Shown here one piece after another: positions 1 through 3,000 of a stretch of 4,629 bases of DNA (position 1 is the stretch's first letter; every line of letters starts with the position of its first letter). Source of the stretch: a virus (Duplodnaviria; Heunggongvirae; Uroviricota; Caudoviricetes). The position numbers were made by a program. The stretch lies in the IMG/VR virus record IMGVR_UViG_2671180979_000009. The stretch is one strand, 5' to 3'.

Positions 1-3000
1 CTTGTGCAGCTGATTGACCAGCGGGTGCAGGCGGTGATGCTGTCCATGCGACGTGACGGAGGAATGCTGAGTGGCTGAGATAAAAACGCTGCATCTGGTC
101 CCGCGTGAAGGGATGCAGGTGAGTGAGAAGCCGTCGGTGGTGAGGGTGCGGTTTGGTGACGGTTATGAACAGCGCCGCCCCACAGGGCTGAATCCTCAAC
201 TGAAGACGTTTCAGGCGGTGTTCCGGGTGACGGATGAGTCAACCCGGCGCTGGCTGGAAGAGTTTTTATCGTGGCATGGTGGTTACCGTGCCTTTTTGTG
301 GCGACCGCCGAAACATAACCGGACGGTGAGGGTTGTGTGCCGTGAGTGGAGTGTCACGGATAATGCCCGGTACAGTGATTTCAGTTGCACGATAGAGCAG
401 GTGGTGAACTGATGCAGGATATTCACGAAGAAAGTCTGAACGAGTCGGTTAAATCAGAGCAGTCACCGCGGGTGGTGCTCTGGGAAATTGACCTGACGGT
501 GCAGGGCGGTGAGCGGTATTTTTTCTGTAATGAGCTGAATGAAAAAGGGGAGCCGGTCACCTGGCAGGGGCGGCAATATCAGGCATACCCGATTGACGGC
601 AGCGGTTTTGAGATGAACGGGAAGGGCAGCAGTGCCCGCCCGTCGCTGACGGTGTCCAATCTGTTTGGCCTTGTCACCGGGATGGCGGAGGACCTGCAGA
701 GTCTGGTGGGGGCCACGGTGGTCCGCCGCCGGGTGTATGCCCGTTTTCTGGATGCGGTGAATTTCGTTGCGGGCAATCCGGAGGCGGACCCGGAGCAGGA
801 GCTGAGTGACCGCTGGGTGGTGGAGCAGATGTCGCAGCTGACAGCCATGACGGCCTCGTTTGTGCTGGCTACACCGACCGAGACGGACGGAGCGCTGTTT
901 CCCGGTCGCATCATGCTGGCGAACACCTGTATGTGGGATTACCGGGGAGATGAATGCGGTTATCACGGTCCTGCGGTGGCGGATGAGTTCGACAACCCCA
1001 CCACGGATATCCGTAAGGACAGATGCAGCAAGTGCATGCGCGGGTGTGAGATGCGCGGCATGGTGGCTAATTTTGGCGGTTTCCTTTCCATTAACAAACT
1101 TTCGCAGTAAATCCAATGACACAGACAGAATCAGCGATTCTGGCGCATGCCCGGCGGTGTGTGCCTGCGGAGTCGTGCGGCTTCGTGGTGAGAACGCCGG
1201 AGGGGGAGCGGTATATCCCTTGTGTGAATATCTCTGCAGAGCCGGAGGCGTATTTTCGTATTGCACCGGAAGACTGGCTGCGGGCAGAGATGCAGGGGGA
1301 GATTGTGGCACTGGTCCACAGTCATCCCGGTGGTCTGCCCTGGCTGAGCGAGGCCGACCGGCGGCTGCAGATAAAAAGTGCACTGTCCTGGTGGCTGGTC
1401 TGCCGGGGGGAAATTCATAAATTCCGCTGTGTGCCACATCTGACAGGACGGCGCTTTGAGCACGGGGTGACGGACTGTTACACGCTGTTCCGGGATGCCT
1501 ACCATCTGGCGGGAATTGATATGCCGGATTTTGAGCGTGAGGATGACTGGTGGCGCAACGGTCAGAACCTGTACCTGGACAATATGGAGGCGACTGGTTT
1601 TTACAGGATTTCCCTGCCTTCCGCACAGCCTGGCGATATCCTGCTGTGCTGCTTTGGCGCATCGGTGGCCAATCATGCCGCCATATACTGCGGCAACGGT
1701 GAAGTCACCGGGATGGCGGAGGACCTGCAGAGCCTGGTGGGGGCCACGGTGGTCCGCCGCCGGGTGTATGCCCGTTTTCTGGATGCGGTGAATTTTGTGG
1801 CGGGCAATCCGGAAGCGGACCCGGAGCAGGAGCTGAGCGACCGCTGGGTGGTGGAGCAGATGTCAGAGCTGACGGCCATGACAGCCTCGTTTGTGCTGGC
1901 TACACCGACCGAGACGGACGGAGCGCTGTTTCCCGGTCGCATCATGCTGGCGAACACCTGTATGTGGGATTACCGGGGAGATGAATGCGGTTATCACGGT
2001 CCTGCGGTGGCGGATGAGTTCGACAACCCCACCACGGATATCCGTAAGGACAGATGCAGCAAGTGCATGCGCGGGTGTGAGATGCGCGGCATGGTGGCTA
2101 ATTTTGGCGGTTTCCTTTCCATTAATAAACTTTCGCAGTAATGGATTATGCCCACCATCAGGTGGGTTTTTTATCTTCGCCGTACATGCTGCTGAGAGTC
2201 TTAAGAAGAGCCTCCCTAAATTTTTCAGATTCTTGTTGAGCAAAACCTTCTATTGATCTTGGTGATTTTTCTTCATCAATAGCAGCTTGCAAGATCATAA
2301 CTATTTCTGAATTTAATGAGCGTCCGTTTTTCGATGCTCTTATGGTCAGGTCGCGCTTGAGGCTATCTGGCATTCTTACGCTATATGGGGCTATGTCTCT
2401 AACCTTCGTCATACTTACACCGTGATAATCACATTGATATCACAGTGTATTCAAAAAAACTTTGACTTGATATAGTCACAGTGATACGTTTGTGATTCAT
2501 AATAACTCACGCGGTGGCGATATGGAAAAAGAAGTTAGCAGAATTTTGGTGAGAATGCCTCAGTCGCTAAAAGATGCGATTACAGGAAAGGCCAAAGAAG
2601 AATGCCGGTCGTTTAACTCGGAAGTGATTAAGCGATTGCTGGACAGCCTGAAGAGAGAGGGGATAACGGTATGAGTAAAGAATGTTGTTTTTTGCGGCAT
2701 TAGCGAATCAGACGCTGATCAAACATACATTTACTCTAAAGAAACAGGTCGGATGCTGTGTAGTGACTGCGTGTTTGACATCATAAGATACAAGTATCTT
2801 GGATGTTCTGCCAGCATTAGCAATATAGGTGAAGTGTACGAAGGGAAAGATATAACTGATAGAGCAGAAAGTTGAAGCCCCAACTGCTGTAACAGTCAGG
2901 GCTTCGTTATCAACAAATCGGCTTAGGAAATATTGACATGAAAAGTATAGCAAAGGCACAAAACGATTTCACTATCTTCAAATTCGGCGACAGTGAAATC

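What the first reader, a model, noticed from the sequence alone, without database searches (positions are those of the whole stretch)
1116..2141. In-frame K(N-terminus)::L(C-terminus) chimeric ORF
An uninterrupted 341-codon ORF switches at nt ~1702/1704 from K-type sequence (...NHAAIYCGNGE) to L-type sequence (VTGMAEDLQSLVG...INKLSQ). It keeps the JAMM motif HSHPGGLPWLSEAD and the NlpC/P60 Cys region (DCY), but loses the K segment beyond GNGE (LLHH... in the intact K), which probably disrupts the NlpC/P60 fold. In its place it gains a second copy of the Cys-rich L C-terminal region, which in lambda gpL is reported to bind an Fe-S cluster. The junction has at most 1-2 nt of shared sequence, so this is an illegitimate join that happens to preserve frame. 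Whether it is expressed, incorporated at the tail tip, or a tolerated relic is open. Its 5' end lacks a clear Shine-Dalgarno and may depend on coupling to L.
Basis: seen in the sequence. Interest (0 to 1): 0.75.

Follow-up and report, generated by a model that had tools for sequence, protein, structure and literature searches.

The report
Probable mis-assembled K::L tail-gene fusion
The in-frame fusion of two phage tail genes is present in the sequence, but it is most likely an artefact of stitching together two similar prophages during genome assembly, so it is probably not a real gene.

Summary
ORF 1116-2141 (341 codons) is lambda-type K codons 1-196 joined in frame to L codons 88-232.

The biological reading is probably wrong. 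All bases except nt 1703 tile at 100% identity onto two natural haplotypes. "Y" is M-L-immI-K-I, identical to public contig CYBN01000140.1, which lacks the extra 1031 nt. "X" is an ordinary L-K prophage such as E. coli UTAK-10. The extra DNA is a 1030-nt piece of X, circularly permuted and threaded into Y's L gene through a 242-nt exact repeat.

The join is blunt, with one orphan base (A1703) that matches no parental allele compared. It is flanked on each side by exactly 29 nt that recur elsewhere in the window. The breakpoints sit on X/Y polymorphism boundaries (p about 7e-4 for random breakpoints).

The three other K::L "fusion proteins" found in the protein search all carry a single scaffold-gap N at exactly this position. 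Two of them enter L 3 nt from the window's entry point. The junction was not found in 5,426 complete E. coli genomes, in phage records, in one representative genome per bacterial species, or in viral or metagenome contigs.

- Assembly or scaffolding artefact: about 0.75.
- Real, very recent, non-functional duplication: about 0.2.

Interest is low.

The parts
71..412 (+). Gene M (minor tail protein), Y-type haplotype
   Evidence: Pfam Phage_min_tail, 3.3e-29. Identical to L006.
412..1110 (+). Full-length gene L ('L1'). It carries Y-type alleles up to at least nt 964 and the X-type allele C at 1095.
   Evidence: Pfam Phage_tail_L, 1.8e-92. One mismatch to L006, at 1095, where the X-type L005 has the window's base.
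853..1094 (.). Repeat S, copy 1. It is 242 nt and 100% identical to 1884-2125. The path switches from Y to X here.
   Evidence: Mismatch tables. No L1/'L difference lies between 852 and 1095.
1095..1702 (+). X-type segment: end of L, the 5-nt spacer, and K codons 1-195 plus 2 nt
   Evidence: 100% identical to NZ_CP168987.1 (L005) from 965 to 1702.
1116..2141 (+). The reported 341-codon K(1-196)::L(88-232) chimeric ORF
1674..1702 (.). 29-nt exact repeat of 4422-4450 (K2), immediately left of the junction. In natural X-type K the X/Y-shared run starts here and continues for 77 nt.
1703..1703 (.). Orphan junction base A, the third base of the last K codon. It occupies the position of the single N in the three analogous scaffold joins.
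1704..1732 (.). 29-nt exact repeat of 673-701 (L1), immediately right of the junction. In X versus Y it is bounded by polymorphic sites 672 and 702.
1704..1883 (+). X-type L codons 88-147
   Evidence: Alleles at the positions equivalent to 702-852 equal L005, not L006.
1884..2125 (.). Repeat S, copy 2. The path switches from X back to Y here.
2126..4629 (+). Y-type remainder: the end of L (T at 2126), the immI-like insert, K2 and the start of I. Zero mismatches to L006.
2158..2412 (-). Arc-family (Mnt-like) repressor gene of the immI-like insert
   Evidence: Pfam Arc, 7.3e-9. Annotated as Arc family in complete genomes.
2522..2674 (+). Arc-family repressor gene
   Evidence: Pfam Arc, 3.1e-11.
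2938..3816 (+). Antirepressor ant (Bro-N + P22_AR_C), interrupted by TAG at 3028-3030
   Evidence: Pfam. The intact 292-aa Ant in L004 differs at nt 3029. L006 has the same split into 30-aa and 250-aa ORFs.
3870..4607 (+). Intact gene K ('K2', Y-type) with a replaced N-terminus and its own Shine-Dalgarno
   Evidence: Pfam Prok-JAB plus a full NLPC_P60, profile 1-105/105. Start context.

Best explanation
The chimeric ORF is most likely not a gene. It looks like the product of an assembly or scaffolding error in a strain that carries at least two lambdoid prophages.

The two prophages:
- Y has M-L-immI(mnt/arc/ant)-K-I.
- X has the ordinary M-L-K-I.
- Their L genes share a 242-nt exact stretch, S (853-1094).
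- Outside a roughly 1-kb island (L codon 88 to K codon 196), X is identical to other copies in the genome, so its contig ends there.

Proposed path of the assembler:
1. It ran Y-L 5' part, then S, then X (end of L and K up to nt 1702).
2. It joined that dead end to the other dead end of the X island (L from the position equivalent to nt 673) across a 1-nt gap.
3. It ran through S a second time and left on Y (end of L, immI, K).
4. The gap base now reads A, either because it was gap-filled or because an N was converted.
5. The frame is preserved by chance (1 in 3), which gives a 341-codon ORF.

Shown by the data: the tiling, the permutation, the orphan base, the 29/29 flanks, the analogues that contain an N, and the absence of the junction elsewhere.

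Inferred: that a second X-type prophage is present in the source strain, and which assembler and gap closer were used.
For: 1. Tiling. Window 1-1110 has one mismatch to public contig L006 (CYBN01000140.1), and 2142-4629 has none. L006 lacks the 1031 extra nt and shares the same ant nonsense codon.
2. X origin of the extra DNA. nt 965-1702 and 1704-1900 are 100% identical to the L-K locus of NZ_CP168987.1. The re-permuted island (1704-2125 + 1095-1702) aligns colinearly at 99.6% to natural L-K loci. Only nt 1703 is unaccounted for.
3. Orphan base. A1703 matches none of the parental alleles compared: G in X-type K and in K2, T in L1, G in X-type L. Some more distant K alleles probably do carry A here (see evidence against).
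4. Analogues. The three other K(N)::L(C) proteins found in a search of a 5.8-billion-protein database (P0002, P0007, P0006) each carry a single N as the third base of the last K codon, exactly at the junction, in draft scaffolds. Two of them enter L at ATGGTCACCGGG, 3 nt from the window's entry at GTCACCGGG.
5. Flanks. The junction is flanked by exactly 29 nt of exact repeat on each side. The L breakpoint is the first base after an X/Y polymorphism. The K breakpoint lies 29 nt into a 77-nt X/Y-shared run. The joint chance for random breakpoints is about 7e-4. This is what contig ends look like in a de Bruijn graph with 29-nt vertices or overlaps.
6. The two S copies are 100% identical over 242 nt, as expected if one repeat node was used twice.
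7. Absence elsewhere. The junction is absent from 5,426 complete E. coli genomes (about 16,000 L/K places; the only hit covering at least 80% is an L->K deletion). It is also absent from INPHARED phage records, GTDB species representatives, IMG/VR viral contigs and JGI metagenome contigs. The exact protein is not on record. In contrast, 302 complete genomes carry L-immI-K without the extra piece.
8. No structural logic. L88 lies in the middle of the gpL HDI beta-sandwich (residues 1-166; PMC10721106). K196 lies between the catalytic His and the third triad His of NlpC/P60.
9. [quoted passage not shown]
Against: - The window has a defined base, not an N, at the junction. I cannot see reads, quality values or the assembly method.
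- In a pure unitig graph, the same 29-nt repeats (673-701 and 4422-4450) should also have broken the two long contigs, and they did not.
- A k of 29 or 30 is unusual for recent assemblies.
- Tandem duplications with blunt junctions or 1-nt insertions do arise in bacteria, and they would also appear as singletons.
- Some K alleles probably carry A at the position of 1703. One complete-genome alignment (H98) extends through 1703, so the base could be K-derived from an unsampled X variant.
- The source assembly was not found, so the presence of an independent X prophage in that genome is an inference.
Confidence: 0.75

Rival explanations
1. A real, very recent rearrangement that produced a non-functional relic.

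Proposed steps:
1. An X-type prophage acquired a 1031-bp tandem duplication by illegitimate (RecA-independent) joining of K codon 196 to L codon 88, with one untemplated base.
2. The duplicated unit, or a circle looped out of it, then recombined into the co-resident Y-type prophage through the 242-nt repeat S.

If so, the ORF sits in the late operon at the native K position. It would be translated like K: the L stop, a 5-nt spacer, then ATG.

The predicted product has three parts:
- an intact JAB/MPN domain;
- an NlpC/P60 domain that lacks its third catalytic His and its last strands;
- half of the gpL HDI beta-sandwich plus the complete 4-Cys Fe-S domain.

It would most likely be misfolded or inert. 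The intact L and K genes on either side would supply both functions.
For: - The sequence is defined, with no N.
- The ORF is uninterrupted, and its start context is identical to the native K start.
- Co-resident lambdoid prophages are common in these E. coli genomes (median 3 matching places per genome, up to 18).
- L->K deletion fusions do exist in a finished genome (P0003 in NZ_CP182512.1), so this region does rearrange.
Against: - It needs an illegitimate join plus recombination in S, with the crossover in copy 2 confined to 853-869 if X carries the usual alleles.
- No mutation has accumulated since the event: every base except 1703 is parental.
- The breakpoints coincide with X/Y polymorphism boundaries and have symmetric 29-nt flanks (p about 7e-4).
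- The junction shows no microhomology.
- All three known analogues are scaffold joins.
- None was found in about 16,000 L/K places in finished genomes.
Confidence: 0.21
2. A real and functional fusion. In this reading the K::L protein is made and does something new. It might deliver the JAB/MPN isopeptidase domain to the tail tip through the gpL Fe-S domain, or act as a dominant-negative or assembly-modulating variant.
For: Only permissive evidence:
- The frame is preserved.
- The JAB motif and all four Fe-S cysteines (173, 182, 205, 212) are intact.
- The ORF sits in the late operon.
Against: - Everything listed against the previous rival applies here too.
- The fusion is a singleton with no relatives that share the junction.
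- The gpL part starts in the middle of a domain, and the NlpC/P60 triad is broken.
- gpK was not detected in lambda virions by mass spectrometry, and the authors speculate that it is non-structural (PMC10721106).
Confidence: 0.03

Closest known systems
Scaffold-join 'fusion proteins' in draft E. coli/Shigella assemblies: P0002 (WXMT01000006.1), P0007 (CXFV01000035.1) and P0006 (WXHR01000004.1), annotated 'phage minor tail protein L'
   Same: - Same gene pair and same order (K N-terminus, then L C-terminus).
- Same locus topology: L, K'::'L, then K.
- The L entry point is within 3 nt in two of the three.
- The uncertain base sits at the third position of the last K codon.
   Different: - Those records show an explicit N, whereas the window shows A.
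- Their K breakpoints differ (codons 219, 133 and 205, against 196 here).
- They lack the immI insert.
Lambda gpK (tail assembly protein K; Prok-JAB/MPN + NlpC/P60, 'C40 family peptidase')
   Same: Residues 1-196 are a K protein. They are 100% identical at the DNA level to K of NZ_CP168987.1. The JAB domain is present, with the HSHPGG...SEAD motif, as are the NlpC/P60 Cys and His.
   Different: The last 51 residues of a 247-aa K are missing. That includes the third catalytic His ('LLHH') and profile positions 78-105 of NLPC_P60.
Lambda gpL (tail tip hub protein with a [4Fe-4S] cluster; PDB 8IYK/8K35)
   Same: Residues 197-341 correspond to gpL 88-232, including Cys173, 182, 205 and 212 of the iron-binding domain.
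   Different: gpL residues 1-87 are missing, which is half of the HDI beta-sandwich (1-166) that forms the last tail ring together with gpJ (PMC10721106).
Tandem duplication by illegitimate recombination between sister or homologous prophage copies
   Same: The product topology is that of a tandem duplication: A-B'::'A-B, with a novel junction and both flanking genes intact.
   Different: - There is no microhomology at the junction.
- The duplicated unit comes from a different haplotype than its flanks.
- The breakpoints sit on repeat boundaries.

Membership tests
Assembly/scaffold mis-join | The junction base is undefined or matches no parental sequence | tested here: met
   A1703 matches none of the compared alleles: X-type K (G), K2 (G), L1 (T) or X-type L (G). 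The three analogous cases have an N at the same position.
Assembly/scaffold mis-join | The breakpoints coincide with the ends of exact repeats shared between co-assembled copies | tested here: met
   29-nt exact repeats lie on both sides. The L breakpoint is the first base after an X/Y polymorphism, and the K breakpoint is 29 nt into a 77-nt shared run. Chance is about 7e-4.
Assembly/scaffold mis-join | The remaining sequence is explained entirely by natural haplotypes that exist without the join | tested here: met
   L006 equals the window minus 1031 nt. The permuted island aligns colinearly to natural L-K loci at 99.6%.
Assembly/scaffold mis-join | No reads span the junction, or coverage and pairing are abnormal there | not testable with these tools
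   No read data are available, and the source assembly was not found.
gpK family (JAB/MPN + NlpC/P60) | A complete NlpC/P60 domain with a Cys-His-His triad | tested here: not met
   The Pfam NLPC_P60 match covers profile positions 1-77 of 105, against 1-105 in K2. Alignment to LytE (8i2f) places the third His in 'LLHH', which is absent.
gpK family (JAB/MPN + NlpC/P60) | An N-terminal Prok-JAB domain | tested here: met
   PF14464, 5.4e-15, residues 3-105.
gpL family (Phage_tail_L hub protein) | A full HDI beta-sandwich (gpL 1-166) | tested here: not met
   Only gpL 88-232 is present. The Pfam match covers profile positions 57-206 of 206. Domain limits come from PMC10721106.
gpL family (Phage_tail_L hub protein) | The four cysteines that coordinate the [4Fe-4S] cluster | tested here: met
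   Cys173, 182, 205 and 212 (plus 208) are present in the L-derived part. Cluster binding itself was not tested.
Real tandem duplication by illegitimate recombination | The junction is seen in independent sequence data or in related genomes | tested here: not met
   Absent from 5,426 complete E. coli genomes, phage records, GTDB representative genomes, IMG/VR viral contigs and JGI metagenome contigs. The exact protein is not on record.
Real tandem duplication by illegitimate recombination | Microhomology at the junction (usual, but not obligatory) | tested here: not met
   Zero shared bases, plus one orphan base.

The most novel reading that the evidence does not exclude
The junction is real. 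A polylysogenic E. coli carries a prophage in which a 1-kb piece of a second prophage has been duplicated into the tail-tip operon. This would create an expressed JAB/MPN-(broken NlpC/P60)-gpL(Fe-S domain) fusion that is made next to intact L and K, and that interferes with, or is incorporated into, tail-tip assembly.
Probability: 0.04. Interest if true: 0.4.

Novelty: not a real feature. Interest (0 to 1): 0.1.

Why it matters
If the ORF is an artefact, as I judge, its value is practical. Strains with several lambdoid prophages yield draft assemblies in which pieces of different prophages are threaded together. The resulting in-frame "fusion proteins" then enter protein databases under ordinary names: at least three K::L cases are annotated 'phage minor tail protein L'. 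Recognising the signature helps to filter such entries. The signature is an orphan or N base at the join, breakpoints on repeat boundaries, and a circularly permuted island.

If the junction were real, it would be a recent, probably inert duplication in a tail operon. That would be of modest interest for prophage-prophage recombination, not for tail biology.

Tried and rejected
1. Domain-boundary or hotspot idea. I first suspected a biological hotspot or domain boundary at L codon 87/88, because three of four K::L proteins start their L part at (M)VTGMAEDLQ. I rejected this when the loci showed a single N at each junction. In addition, the lambda structure paper places residue 88 in the middle of the HDI domain.

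2. Searches for the junction. I searched complete E. coli genomes, phage records, GTDB representative genomes (twice, the second time with any base allowed at 1703), IMG/VR viral contigs and JGI metagenome contigs. All were negative. The single apparent full-coverage hit, H31, is an L->K deletion fusion in natural gene order.

3. Exact-protein look-up of the chimera. It is not on record. Look-ups of L1 and K2 found the duplication-free twin contig L006 rather than the source.

4. Microhomology. I looked for microhomology that could explain a real join. Only a displaced CGGT is present, and it does not produce the observed junction (inspection of the sequences).

5. Flank lengths at other scaffold Ns. 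I checked whether the single-N joins in L001-L003 also have equal-length repeat flanks. They do not (lengths of 63-399 nt), probably because other prophage copies lie outside those loci. That check therefore neither validates nor refutes the k-mer reading.

6. Structure prediction of the chimera. I did not run it, because it cannot distinguish an artefact from a real event.
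Full report
**What is in the window**

The 4,629-nt window is part of a lambdoid tail operon.

| Coordinates | Strand | Feature |
|---|---|---|
| 71-412 | + | Gene M |
| 412-1110 | + | Gene L, here 'L1' |
| 1116-2141 | + | The reported 341-codon ORF |
| 2142-3869 | | Insert resembling the P22 immI region |
| 2158-2412 | - | Arc/Mnt-like gene |
| 2522-2674 | + | Arc-like gene |
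| 2938-3816 | + | Bro-N/P22_AR_C antirepressor, interrupted by TAG at 3028-3030 |
| 3870-4607 | + | Intact gene K, here 'K2' |
| after 4607 | + | Start of gene I |

**Check of the observation**

The ORF is as described.
- nt 1141-1702 match K2 (3889-4450) at 508/562.
- nt 1704-2141 match L1 (673-1110) at 428/438.
- Pfam finds Prok-JAB (residues 3-105), NLPC_P60 truncated at profile position 77 of 105 (residues 111-197), and Phage_tail_L profile positions 57-206 (residues 194-339).
- The product is K residues 1-196 fused to L residues 88-232. All C-terminal cysteines of L are present.

This is simply the native K start: the 26 nt upstream are identical to those of K in a normal L-K prophage. 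The junction has no shared bases. It has one base, A1703, that belongs to neither parent compared.

**Where the pieces come from**

In 302 complete E. coli genomes (O157:H7, O55:H7, O145:H28 and others), the same M-L-immI-K-I arrangement spans about 3,598 bp. That is the window minus 1,031 bp.

Exact-protein look-ups of L1 and K2 led to a public draft contig, CYBN01000140.1 (L006). It has M, L, Arc, Arc, the same split ant, K and I. At the DNA level:
- window 1-1110 differs from L006 at one base, nt 1095;
- window 2142-4629 differs at none.

I call this haplotype Y.

The K part of the chimera, together with the preceding end of L and the spacer (965-1702), is 100% identical to the ordinary L-K locus of E. 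coli UTAK-10 (L005, NZ_CP168987.1). I call this haplotype X.

The L-derived part of the chimera is a mosaic:
- it carries X alleles at every X/Y-polymorphic site between 1733 and 1883;
- it carries Y alleles from 1901 on, including T at 2126;
- conversely, L1 carries Y alleles up to 964 and the X allele (C) at 1095.

The window therefore reads as follows:
1. Y-L 5' part.
2. S (853-1094).
3. X (1095-1702).
4. A1703.
5. X (1704-1883).
6. S again (1884-2125, 100% identical to the first copy).
7. Y (2126 to the end).

I re-joined 1704-2125 to 1095-1702. This gives a 1,030-nt sequence that aligns colinearly, end to end, at 99.6% to natural L-K loci in finished genomes. The extra DNA is thus a circularly permuted island of an X-type prophage, threaded into Y through the 242-nt repeat S. 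Every base of the window except nt 1703 is accounted for by natural haplotypes.

**The junction**

- *Orphan base.* A1703 matches no compared allele. X-type K and K2 have G there, L1 has T, and X-type L has G.
- *Symmetric flanks.* The 29 nt to its left (1674-1702) recur exactly at 4422-4450. The 29 nt to its right (1704-1732) recur exactly at 673-701. Adding one more base on either side abolishes the repeat.
- *Position relative to X/Y polymorphisms.* The L breakpoint is the first base after polymorphic site 672, and the shared run ends at polymorphic site 702. The K breakpoint lies exactly 29 nt into an X/Y-shared run that in natural X continues for 77 nt.
- *Chance.* For random breakpoints, the probability of landing on the start of a shared run in L, and at a matching distance in K, is about 7e-4.

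Two contig ends that each carry one terminal 29-mer shared with another copy, separated by a 1-nt gap, would produce this pattern. That is what a de Bruijn graph with 29-nt vertices or overlaps would give. The choice of assembler is my inference, not a result.

**Analogous cases in public data**

A search of a 5.8-billion-protein database returned other K(N)::L(C) proteins:

| Protein | Length | Source |
|---|---|---|
| P0002 | 365 aa | E. coli |
| P0007 | 279 aa | Shigella sonnei |
| P0006 | 311 aa | E. coli |

At first these looked like independent biological events with a shared hotspot, because two of them begin their L part at MVTGMAEDLQ, one codon from the window's VTGMAEDLQ. Their loci show otherwise. 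Each junction contains a single N, as the third base of the last K codon. These are scaffold joins in draft assemblies that are littered with other single-N joins.

The window's orphan A occupies exactly the position of that N (GGT GA[A] GTC ACC, against GGN ATG GTC ACC). The common entry point in L is where different L alleles become identical, which makes it a contig boundary rather than a protein-domain boundary.

SSPACE and GapFiller-type pipelines are greedy. They are documented to make false joins and then close the resulting N gaps (PMC5320598). I cannot show that the source of the window used such a pipeline.

**Absence elsewhere**

The junction was not found in any of these collections:
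- 5,426 complete E. coli genomes. The one full-coverage hit, H31, is an L->K deletion fusion in natural gene order.
- INPHARED phage records.
- IMG/VR viral contigs.
- JGI metagenome contigs.

The exact protein is not on record.

**Structural logic**

According to the lambda tail-tip structure paper (PMC10721106):
- gpL consists of an HDI beta-sandwich (residues 1-166) and an iron-binding domain (residues 154-232; Cys173, 182, 205, 212);
- gpK was not detected in virions.

The window's L is full-length homologous to that gpL (PDB 8IYK; E = 5e-125). Residue 88 therefore falls in the middle of the HDI domain.

In K, alignment to LytE and related NlpC/P60 structures puts the catalytic His in 'NHAAIY' and the third triad residue in 'LLHH'. 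The junction falls between them. Neither breakpoint respects a domain limit.

**Interpretation**

The best explanation, at about 0.75, is an assembly or scaffolding artefact. The unique 1-kb island of a co-resident X-type prophage was routed through the shared repeat S into the Y-type prophage. It was closed on itself by an artificial join whose gap base now reads A. The frame was preserved by chance.

The main rival, at about 0.2, is a real and very recent event. An illegitimate tandem duplication arose in X and then recombined through S into Y. The product would be a relic with these properties:
- It would be translated like K.
- Its JAB domain would be intact.
- Its NlpC/P60 domain would be broken.
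- It would contain half an HDI domain plus the Fe-S domain.
- The intact flanking L and K genes would supply both functions.

Points that keep this rival alive:
- The window has no N.
- The long contigs were not broken at the same 29-mers.
- Some K alleles may carry A at the position of 1703 (alignment H98 extends through 1703).
- L/K rearrangements do occur in finished genomes (P0003).

A functional fusion has no positive support (about 0.03).

**Verdict**

The feature is most likely not real. Interest is low. Reads or a junction PCR from the source strain would settle the question.

Noticed in passing
window 2142-3869: An insert resembling the P22 immI region lies between L and K. It has a leftward Arc/Mnt-like gene, and rightward Arc and Ant (Bro-N + P22_AR_C) genes. 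Weak divergent promoter-like hits lie at 2475-2528. Hairpin terminators flank it at 2150-2167 and 3835-3852. The same arrangement occurs in 302 complete E. coli genomes, including O157:H7, O55:H7 and O145:H28.
   Followed up: partly
window 3028-3030: The ant gene carries a premature TAG stop. The O145:H28 homologue (L004) differs at nt 3029 and encodes an intact 292-aa Ant. The window's version is split into 30-aa and 250-aa ORFs. The same stop is present in the near-identical contig CYBN01000140.1, so it is a lineage trait rather than a window-specific error.
   Followed up: partly
window 3850-3890: The K gene downstream of the insert has a replaced N-terminus (MLYSNILAHARRC, against MTQTESAILAHARRC). 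It has its own AGGAG Shine-Dalgarno supplied by the right end of the insert. The ordinary K start has no Shine-Dalgarno and sits 5 nt after the L stop.
   Followed up: no
P0003 / L012 (NZ_CP182512.1 1142589-1143884); P0008, P0025, P0063, P0067: In-frame L(N)::K(C) deletion fusions exist, with breakpoints at short shared peptides (e.g. ...DEC|GFV......NSDA|EPE...). One is in a finished genome, where the L part is annotated as a pseudogene missing its C-terminus. One cluster has 11 members. These may be real prophage-decay deletions.
   Followed up: partly
P0004 (347 aa, 9,942-nt contig): This is a K protein with an internal tandem duplication (...RYTDKW|HGVTDCYTLF...). Its first ~165 residues are identical to the window's K'. 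I did not check whether its junction also contains a scaffold N.
   Followed up: no
L001 4840-5358 and L002 7487-8119: The same draft scaffolds contain further single-N joins that create I::L and I::K 'fusion' ORFs (for example MAATHTLPLASPGMARICLYGDL-X-EIVALVHSHPGG). This shows that the tail-tip region of polylysogens is a recurrent source of chimeric database proteins.
   Followed up: partly
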